Shown piece after piece: positions 1,032 to 28,959 of a stretch of 64,000 bases of DNA; within the stretch, counting starts at the first letter, position 1, and each line of letters begins with the position of its first letter. The notes beneath the pieces were generated by a model. The model saw only the letters and a program-made list of their open reading frames with translations, searched no databases and was not told the DNA's origin. Location of the stretch: contig CAZKPX010000004.1 in assembly GCA_964554805.1 (NCBI GenBank), forward strand, positions 72,439 to 136,438, in the 5' to 3' direction. Position numbers and translations under genes: made by a program. This DNA is from an uncultured Candidatus Saccharibacteria bacterium. Its GTDB lineage: Bacteria; Patescibacteriota; CAZHWT01.

Positions 1032-2672
1032 ATGATAGAAAAATTTTCTAGCCGACTGGCAATTATTATCCCCCATCGACTTAAACCAATCCTAAGAAGG
1101 CTGGTTGAGTTTTATAATAGTCACACTAATTGGCTATGGTATCTAGTCTGCCTGATTGCGATTAGCTTGATGCTGCTCAGTGTACATGCAATTCGGCCGT
1201 ATAATTCCGATGATATTGCAGTGCAAGTCATGCTCCGGCAGATTGACTTGTCTCATCCACTCCAAACATGGGTAGGCCCGCAGACCTTTGTTTTTAAATA
1301 CCCTCTTTTCTGGCTGCTCAATGAAGTCTTGCCATCGACTCGTGCCTCTATTTTGTTGACCGCCTGGCTGCAGGTTGTGATTGGTTTTAGCTTGTACTAC
1401 TGGTCAGCCCTCAGCCTGGCTCGAACATTTAAGCTGCATCTACCAATGTTGCGTTTGGCCATAGCGTGGATGCTGACCAGCTCGACGCTACTTTATACAT
1501 ACCTCAGTAATCCTGACTATAGAAATATGGAGATCGGTATTGTATTTGCCTTCTTGGCTTGGGTATTTAGTCGATTAGCACAGGGTTCTTTTGGCAAGAA
1601 TGGATCATGGAAATGGCAAAGCACCCTATGGATACTTGTCTTAAGCTTGGTGTTGGCCAGCGACGCAATGTTCTTGTTTATGGTTATGGTGCCTTTGGGG
1701 TTGTATCTTTGCTTACGATTGTTATTTAGACGGCAGGAACAGTCAAGCCTGATTATGTTAGGTATCATTGCAGGATCAGTGATGGGCATGGTAATAGTTG
1801 GCAAAGTTATGGCCTTATACGGCATTACTGTTTTGAGCAACAGTGACAGTCTCATTGCCCGGTTGGAAGATATACAGCGTCACACTGAGATAGCCATTCA
1901 TTCAAGCCTAGTGCTATTTGATGCCTATATTTTTGGATTATCTGCTTCCGGCTCAAAGCTGCTACTCATACACAATCTTTTGAATGCCTTGACTATAGCT
2001 TTGGGGGTAATAGCGATTCCGCTTTGGTTGATTAAACGTCCGCGCAATTGGAAAATTTTATGGTTAATCGCCCAGCCCTGGCTGATAGCAGCTATTTTTA
2101 TCGTTAGCACTAGAGTCTTTGGTTATTCCGACCAGTCTCGTTATTACAATTCTATTTACCTTATCCTGATTCCTTTCTATATGCCGTTTTTGGTCAGCTA
2201 CACCTACGGCCACCTCCGACAGATTAAACCACGACTGGCTTTTCTTAGCCTGATGCTAGTAGCCATTATAGTTAGTATAGGCTGGCACATCAGAGTCTTT
2301 GATTTTCAAACATTAGGCCAAAATCCCAACCAACTCGAGCTGGACATGATCGAGATAATACGTGAAGAAGGTTTGACTAAGGGCTACGCAGGGTTTTGGG
2401 AGGCTGGGATTGTGTCTTATTTTAGTGATGATACTCCACTAGTTATTCAGGCCGTCTGCCAGGATGCTCATGCTAACCCACACCTGTGGTATCTCAACCG
2501 AAGCAGATTAATCGCACCTGCCAGTGAGTCTTTTATTATCCATAGCGACAGAAGTAATGAATTTAACTGCAGCCAGGCTGATGTCATGGCTCAATTTGGT
2601 CAACCGGAAAAAATAATCCCGATCAATGATCATATTCGAATTATGATCTATGACCGAGATATTTTTATGTGA
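1032..2672 (+). CDS. Polytopic membrane protein, putative GT-C-fold glycosyltransferase (ArnT/PMT-like).
   Basis: 546 aa with many predicted TM helices. An acidic DD motif (RPYNSDDIA) sits in the first extracytoplasmic loop after TM1, and the C-terminal domain is soluble. The gene is adjacent to the glycan locus. Confidence 0.4.
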   Translation: MIEKFSSRLAIIIPHRLKPILRRLVEFYNSHTNWLWYLVCLIAISLMLLSVHAIRPYNSDDIAVQVMLRQIDLSHPLQTWVGPQTFVFKYPLFWLLNEVLPSTRASILLTAWLQVVIGFSLYYWSALSLARTFKLHLPMLRLAIAWMLTSSTLLYTYLSNPDYRNMEIGIVFAFLAWVFSRLAQGSFGKNGSWKWQSTLWILVLSLVLASDAMFLFMVMVPLGLYLCLRLLFRRQEQSSLIMLGIIAGSVMGMVIVGKVMALYGITVLSNSDSLIARLEDIQRHTEIAIHSSLVLFDAYIFGLSASGSKLLLIHNLLNALTIALGVIAIPLWLIKRPRNWKILWLIAQPWLIAAIFIVSTRVFGYSDQSRYYNSIYLILIPFYMPFLVSYTYGHLRQIKPRLAFLSLMLVAIIVSIGWHIRVFDFQTLGQNPNQLELDMIEIIREEGLTKGYAGFWEAGIVSYFSDDTPLVIQAVCQDAHANPHLWYLNRSRLIAPASESFIIHSDRSNEFNCSQADVMAQFGQPEKIIPINDHIRIMIYDRDIFM

Positions 2673-2697
2673 TTTGCTTACATTTTTAAGATGTAGA

Positions 2698-3438
2698 CTA
2701 GCCTGCTGGCTTTTGCGAGACAGAAAGAACAGATGTGCCTAGGGGGAAATTTACCTTGGTGAGGAGCTTTGTTTCCAGATCCAGCATCTTGGCAAAGGCT
2801 GTATTAATAGGCTTTGGCAGCATCACATAACTGGTTTTTTGTTGGCCTTGGGTGGCTTTTTCTACAACTCTATAGCTGACTACCATTGGAAATGAGAACG
2901 CGACAGCATAGGAGCTTTTAAGAATAGTGTAGCCATGCTTTGTGAGTTGATCTGCCAATGGCTTTCGAGTGTAGCGACGGAAGTGGTGGAGACTAATGTC
3001 ATGACCACTCCATAGCCACTGGTGCGCTGGTACTGTAATAATAAGGATGCCACCAGGTCGCAGGACGCGATACCAGTCTTGGAGAGCTTTATCATCTTCG
3101 TCAATATGCTCTAGCACATCCAAGACTACTGCTACATCAAAGCTGTTATCTTTAAAAGGCAGTTTGCTGCCATCAAAGTGAACAGCATTTTCTATACCGC
3201 GCTGCTTGCAATACTCAATGGCCAGATCGGAAGTATCGACATTGGTAATAGTGCCATGTTTGCGCATTGTGGGGACTGTCCCGCCTGTTCCACAACCGAT
3301 GTTTATAATATCTAGGTGATCTTTGCCCAGTTTCTGCCTGGCTTGTTTGAGCTGGGAATCAACTAAAGCTTTTTTGCCAATATGCCACCAGTAACTCTCC
3401 TCCATTTCAGCCATTTTGTGATACTCTTGTAAATCCAT
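2698..3438 (-). CDS. Class I SAM-dependent methyltransferase.
   Basis: Glycine-rich SAM motif INIGCGTGG and acidic motif VLDVLEHIDEDD. The start is refined to M(DLQEY), with an AAGGAG RBS 5 nt upstream on the minus strand. Confidence 0.7.
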   Translation of the reverse strand: MDLQEYHKMAEMEESYWWHIGKKALVDSQLKQARQKLGKDHLDIINIGCGTGGTVPTMRKHGTITNVDTSDLAIEYCKQRGIENAVHFDGSKLPFKDNSFDVAVVLDVLEHIDEDDKALQDWYRVLRPGGILIITVPAHQWLWSGHDISLHHFRRYTRKPLADQLTKHGYTILKSSYAVAFSFPMVVSYRVVEKATQGQQKTSYVMLPKPINTAFAKMLDLETKLLTKVNFPLGTSVLSVSQKPAG

Positions 3439-3463
3439 AAAGCTCCTTAGGTCGGATTTTCTT

Positions 3464-4129
3464 CTACATTGCACCCTTGCCAGCGACGACTGCCAGCGGT
3501 GTCTTGATTAATATTTTTATATCGTAAAAAATTGATTGGCGTTTGGCATATTCAGCGTCCATGGCTACTCGCTCATCAAAAGTTATGCTGCTGCGGCCGC
3601 CAATTTGCCAAGGTCCGGTTATGCCCGGCTTGACGGTTAATAAGGCCTTAATATTGGGCTTAATGGATGGATAAACATCCATTTGAGTTAGCAGTTCTTT
3701 AGCTAAATAAGCTCTGGGTCCGACCAAACTCATGTCTCCCACAAAAACGTTCCAAAACTGCGGCAATTCATCCAAGCTTGTCTTACGCAGGAACTTACCG
3801 ACACGGGTTACTCGCGGATCATCAGTTAGCTTGTAAAACTTCTTAAACTCTTCCTGCTTATTTGGGTCGCTTAATATTTCTTTTAGAAATTCCTCTGCTT
3901 TATCTCCACCATACTTGACTCCGGCCGAATACTCCAGCTTCATGGAGCGGAATTTTAAGATTCGAAACAGCTGCCCTCTGCGCGTTACTCGCTCATGTAT
4001 ATAAAAAATCGGTCCGCGGGAATCTATTTTTACCGCAATTGCTATGATTAAATATAATGGTGAAAAAATAATTAGCGCAACGATCGATCCTGCAATGTCC
4101 AGGATGCGCTTAGAAAGGTCATAAATCAT
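3464..4129 (-). CDS. Polyprenyl-phosphate sugar phosphotransferase (bacterial sugar transferase family, WbaP/WcaJ C-terminal type), the priming enzyme.
   Basis: An N-terminal TM helix and the characteristic [19 protein letters not shown] motifs. Confidence 0.8.
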
Positions 4130-4183: not shown

Positions 4184-5335
4184 TTATAGTAAGTCGGATA
4201 GCTGCCGACCAACCTTCTTCCAGCTGTGATTTTGCTTAACATACTCTACTCCTAGCTCACCTATTGCTTGGCATCGCTTAGCGTCATGGAGCAAGTCAAT
4301 GACCGCTTGAGCCATATTTTCGGGAATAGCATCGCATAATACGCTAGCCTGCTCAGCATTTGGCCCCAAACCTTCTAGGGCGTGTTTGGTCAACACCACA
4401 GGCACTCCAACTGCCATGGCTTCTATGACTTTATTTTGCATGCCTGACCCTGACAGCATGGGGGCTATTGAAACTTGCGCCGAGGATATCTCCGCAGACA
4501 TATCCGGTGGATTGGCTACAATGTTTATGCCCTCCCATGAAGCCAACTCTGTCACGTCATGCGGTGGCGTCGCTCCAGTAATTTTTAGACTGGCTTGCGG
4601 AATCGCTTGCTTAATCAAAGGAAAAACGTTTATGGCAAACCAAACAATGGCTTCACGATTGGGAAAGTATTGTAGATTACCGCTAAAGACAATCTGATGC
4701 GGGACTTTGGTGACATTTTGAGAGCTGACTTCAACACCGTTATTAATGACGGCAATAGCCTGATTGCCAATTACCCGTTTGTCCCGCTGGGAGATAATCA
4801 TGGTTTTGTCGAACTTTCGGAGTAAGCGTTTTTCATATTTGGCTAAGAGGTGCCATTCCAGCCAGGCCACCCATTTGACCAGGCCTGTTTCGGAGCTGTA
4901 TCTTTTATACATGTTAAGGGAATAGGCATCCTGAAAATCCAGAATTTTGGCAGTTTTTAAGCCTGAAACATAGGGGGCTGTTCTGACCATCTGGCAGATG
5001 ACGGTGTCATACCGGGTCTGAGCCGTTAATCTATTGATCTGGGCCTGCATCTGTTTGTTGTAAAAGTAGGCTACCTGGAAGGGTTGCAGGGTAAAAAGGG
5101 GCTTGATCAGATTTGTGTATCTTTCAAATCTACCATAGCCACAAATGATTACCTTGTTGAGCTGGGGAGGAAAACTGGCCCAATGGCTATCCGGGCTGAC
5201 TAAATCTTCGGTAGAGCAAACAAAGTCGACCTGATGTCCCAGATCGACTAATTGCTGCAGGAAATTGGCCACTCTTAGTTGGTCACCCTTAGTGGTGGGA
5301 TAGGGGTTGCGGGAGGCCAGGAAGAGTATTTTCAT
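4184..5335 (-). CDS. Glycosyltransferase family 4 (GT-B, group 1).
   Basis: The C-terminal half carries the E-x7-E-like motif of GT4 (VIEAMAVGVPVV). It overlaps neighbours in an ATGA arrangement, consistent with an operon. Confidence 0.7.
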   Translation of the reverse strand: MKILFLASRNPYPTTKGDQLRVANFLQQLVDLGHQVDFVCSTEDLVSPDSHWASFPPQLNKVIICGYGRFERYTNLIKPLFTLQPFQVAYFYNKQMQAQINRLTAQTRYDTVICQMVRTAPYVSGLKTAKILDFQDAYSLNMYKRYSSETGLVKWVAWLEWHLLAKYEKRLLRKFDKTMIISQRDKRVIGNQAIAVINNGVEVSSQNVTKVPHQIVFSGNLQYFPNREAIVWFAINVFPLIKQAIPQASLKITGATPPHDVTELASWEGINIVANPPDMSAEISSAQVSIAPMLSGSGMQNKVIEAMAVGVPVVLTKHALEGLGPNAEQASVLCDAIPENMAQAVIDLLHDAKRCQAIGELGVEYVKQNHSWKKVGRQLSDLL

Positions 5336-7908: not shown

Positions 7909-8973
7909 TTATTTGCGATAAACGGCTACTGTTTGCTGGGCAATGGTGGACCACTTAAATTGAGTGGCCAGCCTGGCAGTTTGCTTGATCAGCTGACTCA
8001 TCAGCTGGCGATCCTCTGCCAACCGGTCAATCGATTCAGCTAACTGGTTGATATGGCCAGGCTGGAAGGTCAGGCAATTCTGCGGCGGCTGGAGATAGTC
8101 AGGCAAATGACCGCCGTCACTGACAATTAAAGGCTTGCTGGCCACAATGGCCTCCAGCAGGGTTGAATTCCTTCTGGTAACCCCTTTAGTGAAAGGCATA
8201 ACCACCACATCGACCGCCTGCAGGTAGTCCAGAATCTGCTGGTCGTCCTGCGGATTTATCCATTTTACCATGTCTGAGATGTTGAGTGATTTGACCTGCT
8301 GGTCCAGAGTTGTATGATGGGGATTTTGTTGGGGATCGAATCTCGTCAGGAAGTAGAGGTTGACCTTTGATTTTAACTGAGCTGCGGCTGATAGAAGATC
8401 TTGCTCTCCTTTGCTGCCGTCCATAAAACCTAAAAAGCCGATGGAGAACTTTGGTAGTCGGGGTGGATTGGGCTTTGCTGAAACCAGCGTTGGGCCCAGG
8501 GTGATATGCTGGATGGCTTTTGTTTTGTGCGGCAGCCAGGCGGCATCCTGGGGGTTGGGCAGGATTATTCTGGAGAAGCCGGTGGCGAGGATGATGTTGC
8601 GGATTTTGCCGAATAGGCTGGCTTCTGACAGTTCATGAAGGGTTAGTGTTGCTTTAAAGCCGTAGCATCGCAGTATCCAAGGCAATAATACTACCGAAAT
8701 GCCGCGTCGATTGAGCTTGGTGGGATATTGGAGGTGGACCATGTCAAATTTGCCTTTGTTGGCACGGGCCCACTTAAGATACTGGAATAGGCCGAATTTG
8801 TTTAATGATGGGTCGAGCTTGAACTGACCGGCTAGGCTTTGGTTATTGGTGTCTAAGGTGACAATGGTTACCTTAGACCCAAGTTGCTGCAGGGCATTGG
8901 CCAGGAAGTAGGCGTGCTTGCCGACACCGCAAGGGTATGGGGGAAGAGTCGCGGAGAAAATGGCGATGTTCAT
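7909..8973 (-). CDS. Glycosyltransferase family 4.
   Basis: GT-B architecture. The N-terminus MNIAIFSATLPPYPCGVGKHAYFLA is typical of GT4. It is the first gene of the minus-strand operon running down to 2698. Confidence 0.6.
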   Translation of the reverse strand: MNIAIFSATLPPYPCGVGKHAYFLANALQQLGSKVTIVTLDTNNQSLAGQFKLDPSLNKFGLFQYLKWARANKGKFDMVHLQYPTKLNRRGISVVLLPWILRCYGFKATLTLHELSEASLFGKIRNIILATGFSRIILPNPQDAAWLPHKTKAIQHITLGPTLVSAKPNPPRLPKFSIGFLGFMDGSKGEQDLLSAAAQLKSKVNLYFLTRFDPQQNPHHTTLDQQVKSLNISDMVKWINPQDDQQILDYLQAVDVVVMPFTKGVTRRNSTLLEAIVASKPLIVSDGGHLPDYLQPPQNCLTFQPGHINQLAESIDRLAEDRQLMSQLIKQTARLATQFKWSTIAQQTVAVYRK

Positions 8974-9160: not shown

Positions 9161-9436
9161 ATGAAAAATATTGTCTGGGATGAGGCCAAGAATGGTTGGC
9201 TAAAAGAACATCGGGGCATTTCGTTTGAAGATGTGGCTACCAGAATTGTTCAGGGCGATGTGTTGGATGTTATTACCCACCCGAATCAAAAAAGATACTT
9301 TAACCAGAGGCAGTTCATCTTGTACTTGCATGATTATGTTTACGCAGTACCTTTTGTTGAAGATGACAATAACCTATTTCTAAAAACAATAATTCCAAGT
9401 CGCAAGGCTAAGAAGAAATATCTCAGCAAGGGCTAG
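9161..9436 (+). CDS. brnT: Type II toxin BrnT (DUF497 family ribonuclease toxin).
   Basis: N-terminal IVWDEAKNGWLKEHRGISFEDV and C-terminal IIPSRKAKKKY match the BrnT family pattern (I.WDE.K...L...RGisFe..; ..iiSaRkA.k.E...Y). Confidence 0.7.
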   Translation: MKNIVWDEAKNGWLKEHRGISFEDVATRIVQGDVLDVITHPNQKRYFNQRQFILYLHDYVYAVPFVEDDNNLFLKTIIPSRKAKKKYLSKG

Positions 9437-9439
9437 TCT

Positions 9440-11072: not shown

Positions 11073-11199
11073 ACCGGAAATAGGTGCTGGCCGAATTAGT
11101 ATGCCTATTGTATCAGAAATGGCCTGATTGCATAGAAGTGTTGTGGTATCTATGCGCGCAACTATTTTATATAATATGGGAGAGACAGGAAGTCAAACT

Positions 11200-22046: not shown

Positions 22047-22287
22047 CTTTTTTCTCCTGAGATTGGTCAGGAGTAGGCGAAGATTTACCTAGTAACTTAA
22101 GCACAAATGTCTTAACTTGCAGCCAGTATATCTTGAGGGCAAATAAGGCACCAAACAATCCGGCTAAGGCCATTTGAAAGAGATAGCTGCCGGTTCCTGG
22201 ATCGAGATAGGCATAAGCGGGTTGAGTGGCTGCGGACCAAATAGCGGCAAATGCTAGCATAATTGCTAATAGTGAGAAACGGTTCAT
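22039..22287 (-). CDS. Small membrane protein with a signal peptide and one TM helix.
   Basis: 82 aa with a hydrophobic N-terminus, AYAYLDPGTGSYLFQ, and a second hydrophobic helix. It overlaps the upstream gene by 8 nt. Confidence 0.3.
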   Translation of the reverse strand: MNRFSLLAIMLAFAAIWSAATQPAYAYLDPGTGSYLFQMALAGLFGALFALKIYWLQVKTFVLKLLGKSSPTPDQSQEKKDA

Positions 22288-22377: not shown

Positions 22378-23913
22378 TTAGATTTTGTCTTTGAGCTTCT
22401 GCGGTAATGGTAGTAGGCTGAGTGAGTGTTCGATGATGTCTGATGGAAGAATTTTGGCCCAGTAAATGAGAATACCGTAGATGATCAGGGCCAAGGCGGC
22501 AATAAGGCTGAGGTCTAAAAAATTGCTGACTAAACTGGTGTCAGTCGCGAGTTGATTAAGATTGCTTAGGCCCAATAAAACCAGAACTACCGCAGCCAAG
22601 CCCATACTCTTGGCCGCCGTGCTTAAATTCAGTTTCATGCTGAAACGATACCAGATGATGATGAGGAGGCTCACCAGGATAATGGTTTCTGTGACAGCTG
22701 CTGCGATGGCTGGGGCAAAATAGCTAAGGTTGCCCAAGAGTCCGAGGTTAAGGAAAATATTGATAGCTATGGCTGCAACTAGTGTGTAGACAACGAGTCG
22801 CTGTTGCCTGGTAGCAACTAGGTATGATTGGAATAATCCATAAATGAAACTACTAAATATCGCCACCGTTAATACTTGTAGGACTGCAATTGACTGAGGA
22901 TATTGGCTATTACCGAAGATGGAGATGATCTGCGGGGCGCCATAAAAGGTAATAACACAGATAATAGCGGCTGTCATGACGAGGAAGTTGAAGGATTTTT
23001 GGATGGCCTGGCTGAGACGAGCTGGCTCGGTGGCGGCATATCGACTCAATAAAGGGTAGACGGAGGCCAGGAATAGAGGGGGGAGGGTAATGATAACCTC
23101 CATAAAACGTCGGGATAGAGCAAAAACAGCCACATCTTCTTCGGATTTAAAATGACTTAGCATGATGTAGCCAATTTGGGTGTGTATAACTATTAAGATA
23201 CCCATAACCCACAGCGGCCAAGAATCGCGAGCCAATTCAATCAGTGTTGCCCGGTTGGGCCTGAGATCTATCCGAACTTTCATATATTTGGTGGCCCAAT
23301 ATACAAAACAAATCAGGATAATTACGGCGGGGAGAATGGTTGCGACGAGAGCCAAGGCGGAAGTGGTGGCAGTGACATGAAGTTGGCCGGTAGTAAATAG
23401 CCAAACCAGAATTATGGTCAGAACGGTGGTGACGACTTTGGCAATAACTTCGGCTGCGGTTAGCAAATAGGCTTTCAGATTGTACTGAATGGCTGAGTAA
23501 AAACCTGACTGGGCAGCGCTGAAGAAGACGCCGATTAATGAAATATAGGCTGTCGTTTTGACTATGGCCGAGTAATCGCCAAGCCAAATCCAGATAGACA
23601 CACCGACAACTACCATTAGCGACACTAGCATTTTGAGAATTGTCGATTGATTGATTAGTAAATTGTATCTTTGCTCATCTTCGGCAATATCACGAACAGC
23701 CACCTGCTCGACTTTAATCTCGGTTAAACTAACGGCGGTGATAAAAATAATACTGAAAATAATGCTGAATTCGCCAAACTGGGCTTTTGGCAAACTGCCG
23801 GCCACCATAGCTAATGAAACCATTGATAAGGCCATGGTTATCGCTTTGCCTATAAATTGATACATGGTGTTGCGGGCCACTATAGCGGTGGTACTTGGGG
23901 TGGATTGATTCAT
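22378..23913 (-). CDS. Second Wzx/MOP-type polysaccharide flippase.
   Basis: 511 aa with at least 12 TM helices, in the polysaccharide biosynthesis protein family style. Confidence 0.6.
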   Translation of the reverse strand: MNQSTPSTTAIVARNTMYQFIGKAITMALSMVSLAMVAGSLPKAQFGEFSIIFSIIFITAVSLTEIKVEQVAVRDIAEDEQRYNLLINQSTILKMLVSLMVVVGVSIWIWLGDYSAIVKTTAYISLIGVFFSAAQSGFYSAIQYNLKAYLLTAAEVIAKVVTTVLTIILVWLFTTGQLHVTATTSALALVATILPAVIILICFVYWATKYMKVRIDLRPNRATLIELARDSWPLWVMGILIVIHTQIGYIMLSHFKSEEDVAVFALSRRFMEVIITLPPLFLASVYPLLSRYAATEPARLSQAIQKSFNFLVMTAAIICVITFYGAPQIISIFGNSQYPQSIAVLQVLTVAIFSSFIYGLFQSYLVATRQQRLVVYTLVAAIAINIFLNLGLLGNLSYFAPAIAAAVTETIILVSLLIIIWYRFSMKLNLSTAAKSMGLAAVVLVLLGLSNLNQLATDTSLVSNFLDLSLIAALALIIYGILIYWAKILPSDIIEHSLSLLPLPQKLKDKI

Positions 23914-24000: not shown

Positions 24001-24792
24001 TCATGATTGCAACGAGCCGGGTGGTGGGATTAATCGGTTGCGCCATTTACTGGCCGTGGCAAAGATGGCTAAATAGAGTCGGTGAGACCAACGATTGTAA
24101 AGAGCTGAGTGACGACTGTGTAATAGCACTTCCAATTCAGCGCGATGCTGAAGGGCTGGGCCATTGCGACCATCACCATGGAGACGGTAGAAAAATAAAA
24201 CCTGAGGTACATAGACGCCCGTCCAGCCTTGCTCAGCCAGGGATAACCACAGATCCCAGTCTTCAAAGCTAGCTGTCTGATTTACCTCAGTTGAAAATCC
24301 ACCAACACTATCAAAGGCTTGTTTGGTCATGATAGATGTGATTGATAGATAGTTTCGATAGAGCAACTTGGGGACATTCCAGGAGCAGGCCGGAATAATG
24401 GCTTGGCTATGACCAACATATTGCTGATCGCAATAGGCGATGGCGGCCTGAGGATTGGTTTGTTGAGCCTGGATCAAGGCCGATATAAGTTGTTCGACAA
24501 ACTGCGGATGTATATAGTCATCAGCATCAAGGAAGAATATGTAGTCTGAGGTTGAACGCTTGGCGCCAGCGTTGCGGGCCACCACTACCCCGCTATTGGT
24601 TTGCTGCACAAAGGCGACTTGGTCACGGTAGGGCTTAACTATTTGAGCTGAGTCATCAGTAGACCCATCATCAATAACAATTACCTCAATATTGGGGTAG
24701 GTTTGGTGTAAGACACTATCGATAGCTTGATCTAAAAAATGGCCATAATTATAATTTGTAATTATGCAGCTCACAAATGGTTGACTGGGCAT
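24001..24792 (-). CDS. Glycosyltransferase family 2.
   Basis: SCIITNYNYGHFLDQAIDSVLHQTYPNIEVIVIDDGSTDDS, with a DAD/DxD motif in FLDADDY. Confidence 0.75.
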   Translation of the reverse strand: MPSQPFVSCIITNYNYGHFLDQAIDSVLHQTYPNIEVIVIDDGSTDDSAQIVKPYRDQVAFVQQTNSGVVVARNAGAKRSTSDYIFFLDADDYIHPQFVEQLISALIQAQQTNPQAAIAYCDQQYVGHSQAIIPACSWNVPKLLYRNYLSITSIMTKQAFDSVGGFSTEVNQTASFEDWDLWLSLAEQGWTGVYVPQVLFFYRLHGDGRNGPALQHRAELEVLLHSRHSALYNRWSHRLYLAIFATASKWRNRLIPPPGSLQS

Positions 24793-24798
24793 AGGAAT

Positions 24799-25830
24799 TT
24801 AAAGACTGAAGATATCATCATCCAGTGATGGTTGGTCGGGTAATTGGGCGAAAGGTTGTTGGAGTTTTTCCCACCACTGCGGGTTATCTTCGTACCATTT
24901 GACAGCGCTGGCAATACCTTTATGAAAATCTACAGCCGGCTGCCAACCCAAGCGATTGAGCTTGGATGTATCCACTGCCTGTTGTCCAGGCATGCCTGAT
25001 TCTATAACTGATAGTAGTTCTCGCGGCCTATCCAGGAAATGCAGCAGCAAGTCTACAACTTCTATCTCTGACCGAACATGTCCGCTACCAAGATTATAGG
25101 TCTGCGCATCAACATCGCCAGCTCGGGCATGGATGAGGGTATCGATGGCAGTGCAAAAATCATCGACATGCAGCCAATCGTGCTCTACTCTGCCTGCCAG
25201 TTCCAATTCTACCGGTTGTCGCTGGATTGCTTTGGTGATCCAGGAGGCCATTAGCTGATTGGGGTATTGGTGAGGTCCATAGATAGACGATGGACGAACC
25301 ATGGTGATGGGTAAGTTGGCTGAGGTGGTGTAAGAGTAAGCCAGACGTTCGGCGCCTATTTTGGAAGCAGCTTGCGGAGAGGCTGGCTGAAGCTCGTCGC
25401 CTTCGTAGACCGGGCGTTTTTGCAAGCCTTGGGTTGAGGCGGGACCATAGCCTGCTGCCGTAGAGATATGCAAGAATCGAGAAACGCGATAGGCTTTGGC
25501 AGCTTCACATAAGACATAGGTGCCGTAGAGGTCTGTCCTAATAAAGCGCGAGGGGTCTACTTCTTCAGGATTCGGGTATGGTTCTGAGGCTAGGTGAATG
25601 ACAGTATCTATACCTTGACTCATCAGGGCATCCACTTCAACTTCATTGCAGATATCACCTTGGACAAAGTGGTAGGTGGGGAGATGAGCCAGGTCGGTTA
25701 AATTTTCGAGGTTGCCGGAATAGGTCAGTCGATCCAGATTAATGATTGTATAACCTGGATATTTCTTCAGCAGGTAGCGGATAAGATTGGAGCCAATAAA
25801 ACCAGCGCCACCGGTGACTAGGATTTTCAT
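24799..25830 (-). CDS. rfbB: dTDP-glucose 4,6-dehydratase.
   Basis: The MKILVTGGAGFIGSN Rossmann motif, DRLTYSGNLENL (as in RmlB DKLTYAGNLESL), and a catalytic YxxxK region (YSYTTSA..). Confidence 0.7.
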   Translation of the reverse strand: MKILVTGGAGFIGSNLIRYLLKKYPGYTIINLDRLTYSGNLENLTDLAHLPTYHFVQGDICNEVEVDALMSQGIDTVIHLASEPYPNPEEVDPSRFIRTDLYGTYVLCEAAKAYRVSRFLHISTAAGYGPASTQGLQKRPVYEGDELQPASPQAASKIGAERLAYSYTTSANLPITMVRPSSIYGPHQYPNQLMASWITKAIQRQPVELELAGRVEHDWLHVDDFCTAIDTLIHARAGDVDAQTYNLGSGHVRSEIEVVDLLLHFLDRPRELLSVIESGMPGQQAVDTSKLNRLGWQPAVDFHKGIASAVKWYEDNPQWWEKLQQPFAQLPDQPSLDDDIFSL

Positions 25831-25963: not shown

Positions 25964-25984
25964 GGCGACGGGCGACGGGCGACA
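25964..25984 (+). repeat. GGCGACG heptamer x3 in the leader of the rfbB operon.
   Basis: ggcgacgggcgacgggcgaca. Confidence 0.7.
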
Positions 25985-26050: not shown

Positions 26051-26156
26051 CGAGACAGGAGACGCGGGACAGGAGGATTGTCAGTAATCTTTGATTTTTG
26101 ATTTTAATTTTTGCCTTTTGCCCTTTGCCTTTTTCCTTTTGCCCTTTGCCCTTTGC
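26051..26156 (+). repeat. Solo right arm of the MITE-like element (copy b): GGAGACAGGA tract plus TIR.
   Basis: cgagacaggagacgcgggacaggaggattgtcagtaatctttgatttttgattttaatttttgccttttgccctttgcc.. The last about 50 nt are read as the C-terminus of the Mur-ligase ORF (..[17 protein letters not shown]). Confidence 0.6.
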
Positions 26157-27411
26157 CGAGCGCTTTCTCTACAGCTGTTTGGTCTGACCAGGGGATTTCT
26201 TGGCCTTGGATGGCTAGGCTTTGTTCGTGGCCTTTGCCGGTAATTAATACTACGTCTCCCTTTTGAGCCATGGCGATGGCTTGGTTTATGGCTTGTTGTC
26301 GATCGTCGAGGCGCTGCCACTGTTTGCCCTGTACTCTACCCTGTTGAGTAAGACCATCGATGATCATTGATTGTATTGTATCCAAAGACTCAAAGCGGGG
26401 GTCCTCCATGGTGAGGATGGAGAAATCTGCCCATTGGCCGGACAGCTGACCGAAGGTTGAGCGCTTGGATTGATCACGTTGAGCTGCTGAGCCAAAAACA
26501 TGAATTAATGCGCCGTTGCCTGTGACTAATTTTTTAGCTTGAGGCAGTACTTGAGCTAAGGATTGTGGCGTATGGGCGAAGTCAATAATGATGGTGTATG
26601 GTGTAGTTTGGACTACCTGCCAGCGACCATCGACCGCTTTGACCGCTGCCAAGCCTTGTCTAATGGCTGACTCAGAAACTTCGAGGCATACCGCGATAGC
26701 GGTTGCTGCTAAGGCATTTGAAACATTGTATTCACCCGGTAAGAAGACTTGCAAGTCTTGGATCGACTTGGTTTTGCTTAATTTGGGAGAAATTTTACTA
26801 TTGAAAGTCGTTGATTGATCGGTTTGCTGCGTAATCGTGCCGAGTAAATCGGCTGGCTGAGACTGGCTAATAGTCAGGAGCGAGGGGTGGGTGGATATAA
26901 GCTGGGTCAATGGTGGACTGTCTATATTTATGATTGTGTGCTGCGACTGCTTGATAATCATGGCTTTGGCTTGAAGGTATTTATCCATAGTGCGGTGATA
27001 ATCGAGATGTTCCGGGCTCAGGTTGGTAATTAGTCCAACCCTAAAATTAAGACCAAAGGTTCGATATTGGTCCAGGCCATGTGAGGTAGTCTCAATAACG
27101 ACATGGCTGACACCTGCCTGTTTCATCTGATGCAACATAGCATATATTTCGGTTGGACCGGGTGTTGAGGTATGAAGGCCAGTTTGGAGATGTTGGCCGT
27201 TGATCTGCGCACCTAGGGTTGAGATGTGGCCGACTGTATGACCAGCCTGCTCCAATATGCTGGAGACAAGATGGGTGGTGGTGGTTTTGCCATCGGTGCC
27301 GGTAATACCAATCAAAATTAAATGTTTGTGTGGCTGGCGGAAGCGAATCATTGCTGCTGCGCTTAAGAGTATATTGATCAGTCGACGGGCAAGAATTCTG
27401 AGATGAATCAT
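26104..27411 (-). CDS. Mur-ligase-family protein (MurT/MurE-like central and C-terminal domains).
   Basis: P-loop GITGTDGKTTT and a Mur ligase middle-domain block, TSHGLDQYRTFGLNFRVGLITNLSPEHLDYHRTMDKYLQAKAMI. The N-terminus MIHLRILARRL resembles the MurT N-terminus. There is no Zn-ribbon. The C-terminal about 16 aa derive from the repeat. Confidence 0.55.
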   Translation of the reverse strand: MIHLRILARRLINILLSAAAMIRFRQPHKHLILIGITGTDGKTTTTHLVSSILEQAGHTVGHISTLGAQINGQHLQTGLHTSTPGPTEIYAMLHQMKQAGVSHVVIETTSHGLDQYRTFGLNFRVGLITNLSPEHLDYHRTMDKYLQAKAMIIKQSQHTIINIDSPPLTQLISTHPSLLTISQSQPADLLGTITQQTDQSTTFNSKISPKLSKTKSIQDLQVFLPGEYNVSNALAATAIAVCLEVSESAIRQGLAAVKAVDGRWQVVQTTPYTIIIDFAHTPQSLAQVLPQAKKLVTGNGALIHVFGSAAQRDQSKRSTFGQLSGQWADFSILTMEDPRFESLDTIQSMIIDGLTQQGRVQGKQWQRLDDRQQAINQAIAMAQKGDVVLITGKGHEQSLAIQGQEIPWSDQTAVEKALGKGQRAKGKRQRAKGKN

Positions 27412-27986
27412 GTGCTTGGAAATAACTCAGGGAATTTTCGCTGAGCCATCAGTATAGCTGTGATGGCCTGGCCGTTGGTCAATTGGCCCGATTCAATAAG
27501 CTGATTGATTTGTTTTAGGGTGAATTTTTTAACTTGCGATACCTCATTGGTATCGGTGTGAGGCTGTTGCTGCACCTGTTGTGCCACAAAATAGATGGCC
27601 TGTTCATCTGAGACGGAGGGGCATGGATGAATACGAGCCAATTTGGACCATTGTTGCGCTTTGAGTCCAGCCTCTTCCAATAACTCACGCTGGGCTGCTA
27701 CTAAGGGCGATTCGTCTGCTGATTCTATGCCTCCCATTGGAATTTCCCAGGCAAAGCGCTGTATGGGATAACGCCAGACTTCGACTAGATAGATACCGCC
27801 ATCCCGATCGACCGGCACAATTGCGACCGACTTGGATAAGGATCTATAAGAATAGACACCTGGCCGACCATCAGGATGAATAATCTGATCTTCGACAATG
27901 GTCATAAATTGGTTTTGGTACGCTATCTTGCTATCGACAGTGGTATACGGTGAGTCAGGTGCTGGCTTAGTCATGATTATAGCCAT
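27408..27986 (-). CDS. NUDIX hydrolase (ADP-ribose/nucleotide-sugar pyrophosphatase-like).
   Basis: NUDIX box GGIESADESPLVAAQRELLEEAGL. The start is refined to an internal Met so that it overlaps the galE stop by only a few nt. Confidence 0.7.
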   Translation of the reverse strand: MAIIMTKPAPDSPYTTVDSKIAYQNQFMTIVEDQIIHPDGRPGVYSYRSLSKSVAIVPVDRDGGIYLVEVWRYPIQRFAWEIPMGGIESADESPLVAAQRELLEEAGLKAQQWSKLARIHPCPSVSDEQAIYFVAQQVQQQPHTDTNEVSQVKKFTLKQINQLIESGQLTNGQAITAILMAQRKFPELFPST

Positions 27987-28959
27987 TTGGATGTGCTGCA
28001 TGCCATTGCCAAGCTGATTTAATAATATCTTCGAGTTGACTATGCTGGGGTTGCCAGTTGAGTTTTTGCTGCAGTTTTTCTGATGAGGCAATCAGCTGAT
28101 CGGGGTCGCCCGGGCGGCGCTGACCATACTCAACTGTAAAATCTTTGGCGGTGACTTGTTTGACCATATCCACTACCTGTTGATTGGAGTATCCTTGGCC
28201 GGTTCCGACATTGAATTGATCAGAAACTCCGCCGGCGACTAAATATTCCATGGCTTTGAGATGAGCGCTCGCTAGATCGGCGATGTGAATATAATCTCTG
28301 ACACAAGTACCATCGGGAGTATTGTAGTCTTGACCAAAGATAGTAATATGTGGACGTTGGCCTGTGGCTGCCTGAATAACTAATGGAATAAGGTGTGATT
28401 CGGGCTGATGAGCTTCGCCGCGACTACCGTCTAGCGCTGCACCGGAGGCGTTGAAATAACGGAGGCAGACACTGGTCAGGCCGTGAGCTTGATCCATCCA
28501 TTTCAGCATGTCTTCCATCATTAATTTGCTTGCACCATAGGGATTGGTGGGGACTTTGGGATCGTCTTCTTGGATTGGCACTTGGACTGGATTGCCGTAG
28601 ACTGCAGCGGTCGAGGAGAAGACGACATGTTTGATGCCATGATCATGGATGGCCTTGAACAGAACCAGCGAGCCCGCTACATTGTTTGAAAAATACTTGG
28701 CTGGCTGCTCGACAGATTCGCCGACTTGAATGTAGGCTGCAAAATGGATTAAACCATCAAATGCTTGGTCTGTTAAAAGACTGTCTAATAATTGTCGATC
28801 ATCGATTCGACCTGTGACTAATGTAACCGAGTCAGGCAAGGCCTGAGCATGGCCGAATTCTAACGAGTCTAAAACGGTCACTTGATGACCGGATTCCACT
28901 AAGTGGTTGACTGTTTCTGAGCCAATATAACCTGCTCCACCGGTGACGAGAATATTCAT
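27967..28959 (-). CDS. galE: UDP-glucose 4-epimerase.
   Basis: MNILVTGGAGYIGSETVNHL, a YxxxK motif (YGASKLMMEDMLKW), 330 aa, and a GalE-like C-terminus. Confidence 0.8.
   Translation of the reverse strand: MNILVTGGAGYIGSETVNHLVESGHQVTVLDSLEFGHAQALPDSVTLVTGRIDDRQLLDSLLTDQAFDGLIHFAAYIQVGESVEQPAKYFSNNVAGSLVLFKAIHDHGIKHVVFSSTAAVYGNPVQVPIQEDDPKVPTNPYGASKLMMEDMLKWMDQAHGLTSVCLRYFNASGAALDGSRGEAHQPESHLIPLVIQAATGQRPHITIFGQDYNTPDGTCVRDYIHIADLASAHLKAMEYLVAGGVSDQFNVGTGQGYSNQQVVDMVKQVTAKDFTVEYGQRRPGDPDQLIASSEKLQQKLNWQPQHSQLEDIIKSAWQWHAAHPNGYNHD

What the first reader, a model, noticed from the sequence alone, without database searches (positions are those of the whole stretch)
1032..28959. A 28-kb surface-glycan locus with two flippases, a polymerase and an unusually large set of modification enzymes.
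The gene content indicates a Wzx/Wzy-type pathway: a priming phosphotransferase at 3464-4129, five GT4 and two GT2 genes, and a Wzy-like protein at 6453-7907. It has two separate Wzx-like flippases (14716-16137 and 22378-23913). The decoration enzymes are a pyruvyl transferase, three SAM methyltransferases including FkbM, two LtaS/sulfatase-like ectoenzymes, and nucleotide-sugar enzymes (RmlB, GalE). Two GT-C-fold membrane proteins flank it (1032-2672, and further away 55643-57187).

Two flippases suggest two distinct lipid-linked products, or a branched assembly. This is consistent with a heavily modified, possibly phase-variable surface polysaccharide or S-layer glycan.
Basis: partly seen in the sequence, partly recalled or inferred. 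Interest (0 to 1): 0.55.

Follow-up and report, generated by a model that had tools for sequence, protein, structure and literature searches.

The report
Patescibacterial surface-glycan locus with unknown module
This is a real but largely ordinary flippase/polymerase-type surface-sugar gene cluster in an ultrasmall (Patescibacteria) bacterium, and its most interesting part is an overlooked three-gene unit (tiny membrane protein, kinase-methyltransferase fusion, membrane phosphotransferase) that recurs in hundreds of bacterial and archaeal species and that I could not find described.

Summary
Window 1032-28959 is a Wzx/Wzy-type glycan locus. It has a priming phosphotransferase, four GT4 (not five), two GT2, one Wzy, two unrelated Wzx, a pyruvyl transferase with an FrhB-like partner, two plain methyltransferases, GalE and an RmlB-like SDR. 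It also holds a housekeeping short-form murE, a Nudix gene and a BrnT/BrnA pair.

The two "LtaS/sulfatase-like" proteins are alkaline-phosphatase-superfamily membrane enzymes with a Thr, not a sulfatase Cys/Ser motif. They miss Pfam themselves; their orthologs hit it. The "third methyltransferase" is a protein-kinase-like plus SAM-methyltransferase fusion, the WbdD domain pair in reverse order.

Four related loci share the frame but not the GT/Wzy block. Wzx2 is the lineage's resident flippase. Wzx1 occurs only in the two loci that also carry a pyruvyl transferase.

An 82-aa membrane protein (22039-22287), the kinase-methyltransferase and the phosphotransferase form a module. At least 591 GTDB species genomes encode the kinase-methyltransferase. 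Among the 82 loci examined, the small ORF lies upstream in 65 of 77 and the phosphotransferase directly downstream in about 45 of 82.

The GT-C fold of 1032-2672 rests on one motif only. Phase variation has only a four-copy heptamer repeat behind it. An S-layer link is untestable here.

The parts
1032..2672 (+). 546-aa multi-pass membrane protein with a C-terminal soluble domain. It is a conserved flank gene of the locus and a possible GT-C-type enzyme.
   Evidence: No Pfam, NCBIfam or PDB hit. The family has 383 representatives. S59-D60 after TM1 is near-invariant, and C476 and C513 are invariant. Its best homolog P0247 (35% identity) is the gene at the same end of L085, next to the ortholog of 2698-3474.
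2698..3474 (-). Class I SAM methyltransferase (Methyltransf_11)
   Evidence: PF08241 at 84.5 bits. 70% identical ortholog at the matching position in L085.
3464..4129 (-). Small polyprenyl-phosphate sugar-1-phosphate transferase (initiating enzyme)
   Evidence: PF02397 at 211.6 bits. It matches the catalytic C-terminal part of the WbaP/WcaJ/EPS_sugtrans models. One hydrophobic segment.
4184..5335 (-). GT4 glycosyltransferase
   Evidence: PF13692 and PF13439
5332..6456 (-). GT4 glycosyltransferase
   Evidence: PF00534 at 94.5 bits
6453..7907 (-). Wzy-type repeat-unit polymerase
   Evidence: TIGR04370 at 47.5 bits (cut-off 40) and PF14296 at 27.6 bits (cut-off 26.6). At least 9 hydrophobic segments.
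7909..8973 (-). GT4 glycosyltransferase
   Evidence: PF00534 at 61.8 bits
9161..9766 (+). BrnT-like toxin (9161-9436) and BrnA antitoxin (9440-9766). This is an insertion on the opposite strand, not glycan machinery.
   Evidence: PF04365 at E = 7.8e-7, below its cut-off. PF14384 at E = 5.4e-8.
9882..11072 (-). GT4 glycosyltransferase
   Evidence: PF13692 at 101 bits
11128..12168 (+). GT2 glycosyltransferase
   Evidence: PF00535 at 130 bits
12218..13294 (+). Polysaccharide (ketal) pyruvyl transferase
   Evidence: PF04230 at 92.9 bits. It does not reach the CsaB equivalog: TIGR03609 at 33 bits against 213.
13312..14730 (+). FrhB/FdhB-like flavin/FeS protein paired with the pyruvyl transferase
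   Evidence: PF04432 and PF04422. L083 has a nitroreductase-like protein in the same block.
14716..16137 (-). Wzx flippase, clade B (accessory)
   Evidence: PF01943 at 68.9 bits. 41-43% identical to the downstream Wzx of L083 and unrelated to Wzx2. It lies in the low-GC stretch at 11-19 kb.
16172..17044 (-). FkbM-family methyltransferase
   Evidence: PF05050 at 62.8 bits and TIGR01444 at 86 bits
17308..18930 (-). Membrane-anchored alkaline-phosphatase-superfamily (LtaS/EptA-like) enzyme, divergent paralog
   Evidence: 26% identical to 19002-20600 and 31% to P0005, which carries PF00884. 4-5 N-terminal TM segments.
19002..20600 (-). Membrane-anchored alkaline-phosphatase-superfamily (LtaS/EptA-like) enzyme
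   Evidence: At least 816 relatives, about half of the top 120 with PF00884. Five TM segments, then an ectodomain. Conserved D200, T241 (NYPKT), H379, H384 and D443-E444, with no C/S-x-P-x-R motif. The start is 3 nt after the stop of the upstream gene.
20553..20583 (.). Perfect heptamer tandem repeat (GAGCGAC)x4.4 within codons ~6-16 of 19002-20600
   Evidence: A second, imperfect array at 20998-21029 encodes a loop insertion found only in this copy of the kinase-methyltransferase.
20604..22046 (-). Protein-kinase-like domain (residues ~1-260) fused to a class I SAM methyltransferase (residues ~265-480)
   Evidence: AF2 pLDDT 87.8, pTM 0.90. The methyltransferase domain matches ChlM, WbdD, Hen1 and others. 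The N-terminal domain modelled alone matches only protein kinases in the top 50, at E ~1e-4 and TMq 0.31-0.43. D119-x4-N124 and D136 are invariant.
22039..22287 (-). 82-aa membrane protein: signal-peptide-like N-terminus ending A-Y-A, then YLDPGTGS, one TM helix, and a basic then acidic tail
   Evidence: It overlaps the start of the next gene by 8 nt. Orthologs are 58-62% identical in L085 and L083. The same type of ORF is upstream of the kinase-methyltransferase in 65 of 77 loci. No Pfam hit.
22378..23913 (-). Wzx flippase, clade A (resident)
   Evidence: PF01943 at 56.3 bits plus MatE. 36% identical to the only Wzx of L085 and 30% to that of L087.
24001..24792 (-). GT2 glycosyltransferase
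   Evidence: PF00535 at 116 bits. 54% identical ortholog in L083.
24799..25830 (-). NDP-sugar 4,6-dehydratase-like SDR (RmlB-like)
   Evidence: PF01370 at 179.8 bits. TIGR01181 at 270 bits is below the 365 cut-off. 65-75% identical orthologs in L083 and L085.
26104..27411 (-). Short-form MurE. This is housekeeping peptidoglycan synthesis, not part of the glycan pathway.
   Evidence: TIGR01085 at 365.8 bits. Homologs of 390-440 aa without PF01225 are annotated MurE across Patescibacteria. It is absent from this position in L083, L085 and L086.
27408..28091 (-). Nudix hydrolase. The maximal ORF is given; the real start is probably downstream.
   Evidence: PF00293 at 61 bits. A Nudix gene sits between GalE and the SDR in L086 as well.
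27967..28959 (-). UDP-glucose 4-epimerase GalE
   Evidence: TIGR01179 at 423 bits. 76% identical ortholog in L083.

Best explanation
The region is the main cell-surface heteropolysaccharide locus of a Patescibacteria (CPR) bacterium. It works by the Wzx/Wzy route.

**Proposed pathway**
1. GalE and an RmlB-like SDR supply nucleotide sugars.
2. A small phosphoglycosyl transferase primes a polyprenyl phosphate.
3. Four GT4 and two GT2 enzymes build the repeat unit.
4. Cytoplasmic enzymes decorate the lipid-linked unit: two methyltransferases, and a pyruvyl transferase with a flavoprotein partner.
5. A Wzx flips the unit and Wzy polymerises it.
6. Two membrane-anchored alkaline-phosphatase-superfamily enzymes add phospho-substituents outside the membrane.

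**Mosaic structure**
- A frame is conserved in the lineage: SDR, GalE, resident flippase Wzx2, the three-gene module, the methyltransferase at 2698-3474 and the 546-aa membrane protein.
- A glycosyltransferase/Wzy block differs between relatives.
- An accessory block (GT2, pyruvyl transferase, FrhB-like protein, FkbM) carries its own flippase, Wzx1. I propose Wzx1 handles the pyruvylated or methylated form of the unit.

**The embedded module**
The module is the 82-aa membrane protein, the kinase-like/methyltransferase fusion, and one or two phosphotransferases. I propose it is a self-contained modification device. The cytoplasmic fusion would phosphorylate and methylate a hydroxyl, as WbdD does. 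The ectoenzyme would transfer a phospho-group from a lipid donor. The small protein would tether the two across the membrane.

**Shown versus inferred**
- Shown: family and fold assignments, gene order, conservation and co-occurrence.
- Inferred: every substrate, the order of steps, and the coupling within the module.
For: - **Gene families:**
- **Tight packing:** genes on one strand overlap by 4-8 nt or sit a few nt apart.
- **Frame conserved in four relatives:** SDR 65-75% identical, kinase-methyltransferase 63-70%, small protein 58-62%, methyltransferase 2698-3474 70%. The GT4s, Wzy, priming transferase, pyruvyl transferase and FkbM have no ortholog at E <= 1e-5, or only 22-30% matches.
- **Flippases:** Wzx2 groups with the single Wzx of L085 and L087 at 30-37% identity. 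Wzx1 groups with the second Wzx of L083 at 41-43%. Only the window and L083 carry a pyruvyl transferase, an extra methyltransferase and a redox protein.
- **Composition:** GC falls to 0.39-0.43 across 11-19 kb, against 0.47-0.50 on either side.
- **Module partners:** the small ORF is upstream in 65 of 77 loci. An A2-family enzyme is directly downstream on the same strand, at a gap of -3 to +40 nt, in about 45 of 82 loci. Other PF00884 proteins take that place in further loci.
- **Kinase-like fold and invariant D-x4-N...D:**
- **WbdD precedent:** a kinase plus methyltransferase makes a sugar methyl phosphate (PMC3482155).
- **Literature on lipid-linked units:** pyruvylation acts on lipid-linked units before flipping, and a model with separately flipped units exists for the B. 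anthracis SCWP (PMC6801904). Wzx proteins prefer their cognate unit (PMC6436433 abstract).
- **Taxonomy:** named relatives of MurE, the kinase-methyltransferase and the phosphotransferase are Woykebacteria, Levybacteria, Microgenomates, Dojkabacteria and 'Patescibacteria group'.
Against: - No chain-length regulator, LCP or WaaL ligase, or export component was found in the window. The fate of the polymer is therefore unknown.
- Only one priming enzyme and one Wzy accompany the two flippases.
- The link between Wzx1 and pyruvylation rests on two loci out of five. The two pyruvyl transferases are not close homologs.
- The window's own phosphotransferase-like proteins miss Pfam. No structure was predicted for them, so the Thr nucleophile and metal ligands are read from an alignment and from remembered LtaS/EptA residue spacing.
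- The kinase-like match has modest TM-scores (0.31-0.43). An arginine (R29) sits where the ATP-binding lysine is expected.
- Among 14 distant loci the module's neighbours are very varied. Glycan genes are only the largest minority. Its target may not be this polysaccharide.
Confidence: 0.7

Rival explanations
1. There are two separate products encoded side by side. One is a Wzy-dependent heteropolysaccharide made by the priming transferase, the GT4s, Wzy, the pyruvyl transferase and Wzx1. The other is a teichoic-acid-like or phospho-decorated glycolipid. It would be made from a GT2-built anchor that Wzx2 flips and the two LtaS-like enzymes extend, acting as primase and polymerase.
For: Wzx2 is adjacent to the module in the window and in L085, and a Wzx lies next to or a few genes from it in L083, L086 and L087. 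GT2 24001-24792 lies beside Wzx2, and its 54% ortholog in L083 lies next to the module. Two LtaS-like paralogs recall two-enzyme LTA systems (my own knowledge). LTA assembly needs a flippase for the anchor plus LtaS (PMC8892547).
Against: L085 and L087 have only a clade-A Wzx and still carry Wzy and GT4 genes. There, that flippase must serve the Wzy pathway. No glycolipid-anchor synthase was identified. Most genomes have a single LtaS-like gene. The family shows no specific similarity to LtaS in the PDB search.
Confidence: 0.17
2. One flippase moves a polyprenyl-phosphate monosaccharide. A GT-C-type membrane protein (1032-2672) then adds it to the glycan outside the membrane. This would be a three-component side-branch system, like GtrABC or archaeal AglD/AglR/AglS.
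For: The 546-aa protein is a conserved flank gene. It has a near-invariant acidic pair after TM1 and a C-terminal ectodomain with two invariant cysteines. GT87, a GT-C family (per my recollection of the Pfam clan), is among the module's neighbours elsewhere. The role of a Wzx-like AglR in flipping a Dol-P-sugar is from my own knowledge.
Against: Nothing identifies either GT2 as a polyprenyl-phosphate sugar synthase; the ArnC-type model scores only E ~5e-6. The GT-C assignment has no family, profile or structural support.
Confidence: 0.08
3. The locus is phase-variable. Expression of some decorations switches on and off through repeat slippage.
For: A perfect (GAGCGAC)x4.4 repeat lies in codons ~6-16 of 19002-20600, and its unit length is not a multiple of three. 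Heptamer arrays sit in the promoter region of the module in L083.
Against: Four copies is few for frequent slippage. Heptamer arrays occur in at least seven other places across the window, several of them intergenic, so they are not a locus-specific switch. No inverted repeats bracket a promoter. L085 has no such arrays.
Confidence: 0.1
4. The three-gene module is an anti-phage or conflict system that happens to sit in the glycan locus.
For: It is very widely spread at a flat ~50% identity across phyla and domains, which suggests horizontal transfer. A toxin-antitoxin pair lies in the same locus.
Against: PADLOC gives no hit apart from a weak methyltransferase-domain match at E = 4e-4. Neighbours are mainly sugar-metabolism genes, not defence genes. 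It is a stable core gene set in five related glycan loci.
Confidence: 0.03

Closest known systems
Wzx/Wzy-dependent O-antigen, capsule and EPS gene clusters (for example B. fragilis PSA, xanthan gum, succinoglycan exo)
   Same: A priming phosphotransferase, several GT2/GT4 enzymes, a MOP-family flippase, a Wzy polymerase, pyruvyl and methyl decorations, and nucleotide-sugar genes. Conserved flanks surround a hypervariable glycosyltransferase block.
   Different: The host is a Patescibacteria bacterium. There are two unrelated flippases. No chain-length regulator, export or ligase gene is in view. A kinase-methyltransferase/phosphotransferase module is embedded.
WbdD of E. coli O9a (bifunctional kinase-methyltransferase that caps polymannan with methyl phosphate; PMC3482155)
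   Same: A eukaryotic-type protein-kinase fold and a class I SAM methyltransferase in one cytoplasmic polypeptide, encoded in a glycan locus.
   Different: The domain order is reversed. There is no C-terminal coiled coil. No significant sequence similarity (E 0.4-0.55). The context is Wzx/Wzy rather than ABC transporter. A membrane phosphotransferase and a small membrane protein are obligate partners.
GacH/SccH, LtaS, EptA-C, OpgB and BcsG: membrane-anchored alkaline-phosphatase-superfamily transferases that move glycerol phosphate or phosphoethanolamine from phospholipids to envelope glycans (10.1101/337519; PMC8892547)
   Same: An N-terminal TM bundle followed by an extracytoplasmic PF00884-type domain, a Thr at the expected nucleophile position, and a gene inside a cell-wall glycan locus.
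   Different: A distinct family. The window proteins miss PF00884. The only PDB sequence hits are weak ones to arylsulfatases. Asp-Glu sits where LtaS and EptA have Asp-His (residues from memory). Donor and acceptor are unknown.
BcsE-BcsF-BcsG of E. coli-type cellulose systems (PMC8892547)
   Same: The same three-part layout: a cytosolic protein, a very small single-pass membrane protein that recruits it, and a membrane phosphotransferase with a periplasmic domain.
   Different: No sequence relationship. BcsE is a c-di-GMP sensor, not a kinase-methyltransferase. Here the tethering role of the small protein is only an inference.
CsaA/CsaB-type pairing of a Wzx-like transporter with a pyruvyl transferase in SCWP synthesis of Bacillus and Paenibacillus (PMC6801904; the csaA role is from my own knowledge)
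   Same: A flippase sits next to a PF04230 pyruvyl transferase, and pyruvylation is expected on the lipid-linked unit.
   Different: The CsaB equivalog threshold is not reached (33 against 213 bits). No SLH-domain protein was found in the window.

Membership tests
Wzx/Wzy-dependent polysaccharide assembly locus | Polyprenyl-phosphate sugar-1-phosphate transferase that initiates the unit | tested here: met
   3464-4129, PF02397 at 211.6 bits
Wzx/Wzy-dependent polysaccharide assembly locus | MOP-superfamily Wzx flippase | tested here: met
   Two genes, PF01943 at 68.9 and 56.3 bits against a cut-off of 28.2
Wzx/Wzy-dependent polysaccharide assembly locus | Wzy repeat-unit polymerase | tested here: met
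   6453-7907, TIGR04370 at 47.5 (cut-off 40) and PF14296 at 27.6 (cut-off 26.6). Both are partial, C-terminal matches.
Wzx/Wzy-dependent polysaccharide assembly locus | Chain-length regulator (PCP/Wzz), and an export or ligation component (OPX, WaaL, LCP) | tested here: not met
   No such Pfam family among the main ORFs scanned. They may lie elsewhere in the genome.
LtaS/EptA-type alkaline-phosphatase-superfamily phosphotransferases | PF00884 (Sulfatase) catalytic domain | tested here: inconclusive
   The window proteins have no hit even at E <= 10. Ortholog P0005 scores 39.4 bits against a cut-off of 25, and about half of the top 120 relatives carry PF00884.
LtaS/EptA-type alkaline-phosphatase-superfamily phosphotransferases | N-terminal transmembrane bundle followed by an extracytoplasmic domain | tested here: met
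   Five (19002-20600) and four to five (17308-18930) hydrophobic segments in the first ~160 residues
LtaS/EptA-type alkaline-phosphatase-superfamily phosphotransferases | Thr nucleophile and acidic/His metal ligands, rather than the sulfatase C/S-x-P-x-R motif | tested here: inconclusive
   D200, T241, H379, H384 and D443-E444 are conserved and no C/S-x-P-x-R is present. Their assignment to catalytic roles rests on spacing remembered from LtaS and EptA, not on a structure.
LtaS/EptA-type alkaline-phosphatase-superfamily phosphotransferases | Alkaline-phosphatase fold of the ectodomain | not tested
WbdD-type bifunctional kinase-methyltransferase | Class I SAM methyltransferase domain | tested here: met
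   Foldseek of the full-length model finds 375 hits at E <= 1e-3. All of the top 50 are SAM-dependent methyltransferase-fold proteins, WbdD among them.
WbdD-type bifunctional kinase-methyltransferase | Protein-kinase-like domain with catalytic Asp, Asn and DFG-type Asp | tested here: met
   The N-terminal model matches only protein kinases in the top 50 (E ~1e-4, TMq 0.31-0.43). D119, N124 and D136 are invariant.
WbdD-type bifunctional kinase-methyltransferase | Domain order methyltransferase then kinase, followed by a C-terminal coiled coil | tested here: not met
   The order is kinase-like then methyltransferase, and the protein ends at the methyltransferase domain. WbdD architecture is from PMC3482155.
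WbdD-type bifunctional kinase-methyltransferase | Detectable sequence homology to WbdD | tested here: not met
   Profile against PDB gives WbdD at E = 0.39-0.55, over the methyltransferase region only
WbdD-type bifunctional kinase-methyltransferase | Phosphorylates a sugar hydroxyl and methylates the phosphate | not testable with these tools
   Needs biochemistry.
GT-C glycosyltransferases (claim for 1032-2672) | Similarity to a GT-C family or structure | tested here: not met
   No Pfam hit in 41 family members. No PDB hit. hhalign against the window's DUF6056 and DUF2079 proteins gives E = 0.2-0.3.
GT-C glycosyltransferases (claim for 1032-2672) | Acidic motif in the first extracytoplasmic loop of a multi-pass protein | tested here: met
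   S59-D60 (Y-x-S-D-D) is near-invariant just after TM1. This is suggestive only.
GT-C glycosyltransferases (claim for 55643-57319) | Membership of a family placed in the GT-C clan | tested here: inconclusive
   PF19528 (DUF6056) at 68.8 bits. That this family belongs to the GT-C clan is from memory, not checked here.
CsaB-type SCWP pyruvyl transferase | Reaches the CsaB equivalog model | tested here: not met
   TIGR03609 at 33.3 bits against a cut-off of 213. Only the general PF04230 family is met.

The most novel reading that the evidence does not exclude
The trio is the small membrane protein (mature N-terminus YLDPG[TS]GS), the protein-kinase-like/SAM-methyltransferase fusion, and the membrane alkaline-phosphatase-superfamily enzyme. 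It may be an undescribed, horizontally mobile envelope-modification machine shared by bacteria of many phyla and by archaea. In it, a cytoplasmic kinase-methyltransferase and an extracytoplasmic phosphotransferase would be coupled across the membrane by the small protein. One possible chemistry is that the fusion makes or recycles a methylated phospholipid donor, whose head group the ectoenzyme then transfers to a glycan or to the small protein itself.
Probability: 0.35. Interest if true: 0.7.

Novelty: new variant of a known kind. Interest (0 to 1): 0.5.

Why it matters
Surface structures of Patescibacteria decide how these ultrasmall bacteria attach to their hosts, and their glycans are almost uncharacterised. 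The one Tn-seq study I read notes only that predicted EPS genes matter for growth (PMC10633639). This locus gives a concrete, comparable gene set for a lineage-wide surface polymer. It separates a fixed frame from a variable, serotype-like block.

The wider point is the embedded module. A family of more than 8000 protein clusters is annotated only as 'SAM-dependent methyltransferase' or 'PrmA'. It turns out to be a kinase-like/methyltransferase fusion with two fixed membrane partners, present from Chloroflexota to methanogens and Nitrosopumilaceae. If the three proteins act together, they define a new way of placing phospho-substituents on prokaryotic envelopes. The prediction is directly testable by expressing three genes.

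Tried and rejected
- **RNA genes.** The tRNA scan and the Rfam gathering scan of the window found nothing.
- **PDB sequence searches.** 19002-20600 alone gave no hit. Its family profile gave only weak arylsulfatase hits. The N-terminal kinase-like profile gave none. Only the fold search revealed the kinase fold.
- **Mur-ligase gene as an amino-acid ligase for the glycan.** Rejected. The short form is the standard MurE of Patescibacteria, and it is absent from this position in relatives.
- **Repeats at 333-882 and 29006-29384 as island boundaries.** Rejected as locus-specific. The same element recurs at 32.5 kb and 39.9 kb.
- **An apparent 1092-aa fusion of the kinase-methyltransferase in L052.** This is a spurious long open frame in a GC-rich genome.
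- **Defence-system reading.** PADLOC found nothing meaningful.
- **GT-C assignment of 1032-2672.** Family, PDB and profile-profile tests all failed.
- **Organism name.** Exact-match look-ups returned no names.
- **Literature.** Searches for the trio found no description.

Full report
**1. What is in the interval**

ORF listing and family scans account for every ORF of 100 aa or more between 1032 and 28959.

Read along the minus strand from the right, the genes are:
- GalE (27967-28959)
- a Nudix hydrolase (27408-28091)
- a short-form MurE (26104-27411)
- an RmlB-like SDR (24799-25830)
- a GT2 (24001-24792)
- Wzx2 (22378-23913)
- an 82-aa membrane protein (22039-22287)
- a 480-aa protein (20604-22046)
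- two paralogous ~535-aa membrane proteins (19002-20600 and 17308-18930)
- an FkbM methyltransferase (16172-17044)
- Wzx1 (14716-16137)

A plus-strand block follows: GT2 (11128-12168), pyruvyl transferase (12218-13294) and an FrhB-like protein (13312-14730).

The minus strand then resumes:
- GT4 (9882-11072)
- GT4 (7909-8973)
- Wzy (6453-7907)
- two GT4 (5332-6456 and 4184-5335)
- the priming phosphotransferase (3464-4129)
- a Methyltransf_11 protein (2698-3474)

A BrnT/BrnA-like pair (9161-9766, plus strand) sits between the first two GT4 genes. The 546-aa membrane protein (1032-2672, plus strand) converges on the last gene.

So there are four GT4 genes, not five.

**2. Host and boundaries**

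No tRNA or Rfam family is present.

Flanking genes are housekeeping:
- Cmk, PyrG, Sua5 and a VanZ-TsaE fusion
- FtsE and FtsX, RF2, SecA
- two tRNA synthetases and GreA

Named relatives of MurE, of the 480-aa protein and of the membrane enzymes are Woykebacteria, Levybacteria, Microgenomates, Dojkabacteria and 'Patescibacteria group'. The window matches a 137.8-kb NCBI contig. The host is therefore a Patescibacteria bacterium, probably Microgenomatia-like, with no close named relative.

MurE homologs of 390-440 aa that lack the N-terminal Mur-ligase domain are the rule in this group. This gene is housekeeping that happens to lie inside the interval.

**3. The 'LtaS/sulfatase-like' pair**

Neither window protein hits Pfam, NCBIfam or PDB by sequence. 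Even so, 19002-20600 has at least 816 relatives. About half of the top 120 carry PF00884, and ortholog P0005 scores 39.4 bits against a cut-off of 25.

Each protein has four to five TM segments in the first ~160 residues, then a soluble domain.

The family alignment conserves D200, T241 (in N-Y-P-K-T), H379, H384 and D443-E444. It has no C/S-x-P-x-R sulfatase motif. That pattern fits a Thr-nucleophile phosphotransferase of the LtaS/EptA/GacH kind.

Three caveats apply:
- The residue roles are inferred from spacing I remember for LtaS and EptA.
- The fold was not modelled.
- The family profile finds only weak arylsulfatase matches in the PDB.

**4. The 'third methyltransferase'**

The 480-aa protein belongs to a very large, strongly conserved family. 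More than 8000 clusters were found, all about 50% identical, including archaeal ones.

The results for this protein are:
- A full-length AlphaFold model is confident (pLDDT 87.8, pTM 0.90).
- Its C-terminal half matches class I methyltransferases, WbdD among them.
- Residues 1-262 modelled alone (pLDDT 88) match only protein kinases in the top 50 Foldseek hits: CK2, DYRK2, PAK1 and PknG. The values are E ~1e-4, probability 1.0, TMq 0.31-0.43 and about 157 aligned columns.
- D119-x4-N124 and D136 are invariant. Their spacing is that of the kinase catalytic loop and the DFG aspartate.
- No sequence method sees this N-terminal domain.

The protein thus has the two catalytic folds of WbdD, which phosphorylates a terminal mannose and then methylates the phosphate (PMC3482155). 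It differs in three ways: the domain order is reversed, there is no coiled coil, and there is no significant sequence similarity.

**5. A conserved three-gene module**

The 80 loci kept span many phyla:
- Chloroflexota, Omnitrophota and Aminicenantes
- Actinomycetota and Clostridia
- Planctomycetota and Pseudomonadota
- Patescibacteria
- the archaeal groups Methanobacteriota, Methanomicrobia and Nitrosopumilaceae

In about 45 of 82 loci examined, the next gene on the same strand is a member of the membrane-enzyme family, at a gap of -3 to +40 nt. In other loci, different PF00884 proteins occupy that place.

In 65 of 77 loci with enough upstream sequence, a small ORF ends at or overlaps the start of the fusion gene. 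It encodes [YF][LI]DPG[TS]GS, one TM helix, and a basic then acidic tail.

The window's copy is 22039-22287. It has a signal-peptide-like N-terminus ending A-Y-A before YLDPGTGS. The Anaerolineae versions start directly at the motif. By the positive-inside rule the motif would lie outside and the tail inside; this topology is inferred. The small protein has no Pfam family.

Neighbours of the module in 14 distant loci are very varied. Sugar-metabolism genes are the commonest class among 104 proteins:
- Epimerase, 5
- GT1, 5
- GT2, 3
- GT87, 3
- sulfotransferase, 3
- Wzt_C, 2

PADLOC gives nothing. I found no description of this trio in the literature.

The layout recalls BcsE-BcsF-BcsG: a cytosolic protein, a tiny membrane protein and a phosphoethanolamine transferase (PMC8892547). 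GacH shows that an LtaS-type ectoenzyme inside a cell-wall glycan locus can decorate that glycan with glycerol phosphate (10.1101/337519).

**6. The two flippases and the mosaic**

Four related loci were recovered: L085 and L087 (Logan), L083 (NCBI) and L086 (JGI).

All four share these genes with the window:
- SDR and GalE, usually with DUF5667 and an LPG_synthase_TM protein nearby
- the small protein, the fusion and one or two membrane enzymes
- a methyltransferase, a Wzx, glycosyltransferases and, where the fetched locus extends far enough (L085, L086, L087), Wzy

Identities to the window are high for the frame:
- SDR, 65-75%
- kinase-methyltransferase fusion, 63-70%
- small protein, 58-62%
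- methyltransferase 2698-3474, 70%

The 546-aa protein's best homolog, P0247, is the gene next to that methyltransferase in L085.

By contrast, these genes have no ortholog in L083 or L085 at E <= 1e-5, or only 22-30% matches:
- the GT4s
- Wzy
- the priming transferase
- the pyruvyl transferase
- the FrhB-like protein
- FkbM

The flippases fall into two groups:
- Wzx2 groups with the single Wzx of L085 and L087 at 30-37% identity.
- Wzx1 groups only with the second Wzx of L083 at 41-43%.

The window and L083 are also the only loci with a pyruvyl transferase, an extra methyltransferase and a redox protein. GC drops to 0.39-0.43 across 11-19 kb.

My reading is a resident flippase plus an accessory one linked to the pyruvylated or methylated form of the unit. 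Two literature points fit this:
- Pyruvylation acts on lipid-linked units before flipping. In the B. anthracis SCWP model, differently finished units are flipped separately (PMC6801904).
- Wzx proteins prefer their cognate unit (PMC6436433 abstract).

This rests on five loci, and the two pyruvyl transferases are not close homologs.

**7. Other claims**

The GT-C claims are only partly checkable:
- 55643-57319 is a DUF6056 protein and 54250-55638 is a DUF2079 protein. That these families are GT-C is my recollection, not tested here.
- 1032-2672 has no family, PDB or profile-profile support. Only a near-invariant S-D-D after TM1 and a cysteine-containing C-terminal ectodomain point that way.

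For phase variation, a perfect (GAGCGAC)x4.4 repeat lies in codons ~6-16 of 19002-20600. A related imperfect array encodes a loop insertion found only in this copy of the fusion. Heptamer arrays occur across the window and in L083. The copy number is low, so this remains a weak possibility.

No SLH, LCP, WaaL or Wzz family was found in the main ORFs scanned. The polymer's attachment and any S-layer link remain open.

**8. Verdict**

The locus is a genuine Wzx/Wzy-type surface-glycan cluster. As such it is a new member of a well-known kind, in an unusual host.

Its distinctive content is the conserved small-protein / kinase-methyltransferase / phosphotransferase module. Its fold assignments and co-occurrence are shown here. 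Its chemistry is inferred.

Noticed in passing
window 646-882, 29143-29384, 32464-32644, 39930-40103 (flanking arrays e.g. 331-361, 844-882, 29010-29056, 29339-29385, 39837-39883, 40180-40237; partial copy 26065-26157): A dispersed intergenic element of about 180-250 nt, 71-88% identical between copies. Each copy is bracketed by inverted arrays of heptamers, (AAAGGCA)n and (TTTTGCC)n. Its core holds an inverted pair of Shine-Dalgarno-plus-ATG-like arms (669-695 and 775-801). There are at least four copies in 64 kb. Two of them bracket the glycan locus in direct orientation. There is no Rfam match.
   Followed up: partly
window 20553-20583, 20998-21029, 25964-25983, 35324-35353, 63690-63709; L083 2883-2933, 9378-9662: A second heptamer family, (GAGCGAC)/(GGCGACG), occurs in tandem arrays inside coding regions and between genes. 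One array adds a nine-residue loop to the kinase-methyltransferase. A relative has long heptamer and octamer arrays just upstream of its module. Heptamer microsatellites may be a trait of this lineage; they are present in the window and L083 but absent from L085.
   Followed up: partly
window 9161-9766 (+): A BrnT-like toxin and BrnA antitoxin pair is inserted on the opposite strand between two GT4 genes of the glycan locus.
   Followed up: partly
window 26104-27411: MurE lacks the N-terminal Mur-ligase domain (435 aa; matches positions 70-471 of TIGR01085). Such short forms are the norm among Patescibacteria homologs, which raises the question of how they bind the UDP-MurNAc substrate.
   Followed up: partly
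window 41438-47506 (-), repeat at 43528-44056: A 2022-aa ORF with no Pfam hit contains a perfect 255-nt tandem duplication (2.1 copies, 100% identical). It lies in a stretch with unusual composition: GC 0.54, GC skew 0.26, AT skew -0.39. It may be a large surface protein.
   Followed up: no
window 29390-31235; L085 1812-4499; L086 945-2668: A DUF5667 protein and an LPG_synthase_TM (MprF flippase-like) membrane protein stay next to GalE and the glycan locus in relatives. The latter could be a third lipid-translocating protein linked to the locus.
   Followed up: no
window 13312-14730; L083 19190-20209: The pyruvyl transferase is accompanied by a flavin/FeS-type protein in both loci that have one. 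It is FrhB-like in the window and nitroreductase-like in L083. The role of a redox partner in pyruvylation is unexplained.
   Followed up: no
window 36012-36845 and 31943-32518: There is a VanZ-TsaE fusion protein. There is also a 191-aa ORF that matches only positions 26-84 of the TsaD profile, possibly a TsaB-like protein or a fragment.
   Followed up: no
window 40161-41396 (+): The called RF2 ORF starts at a TTG, and its first ~75 nt are a (TTTGCCC)n heptamer array (40180-40237). The real start is probably further downstream. I did not check for the usual RF2 frameshift site.
   Followed up: no
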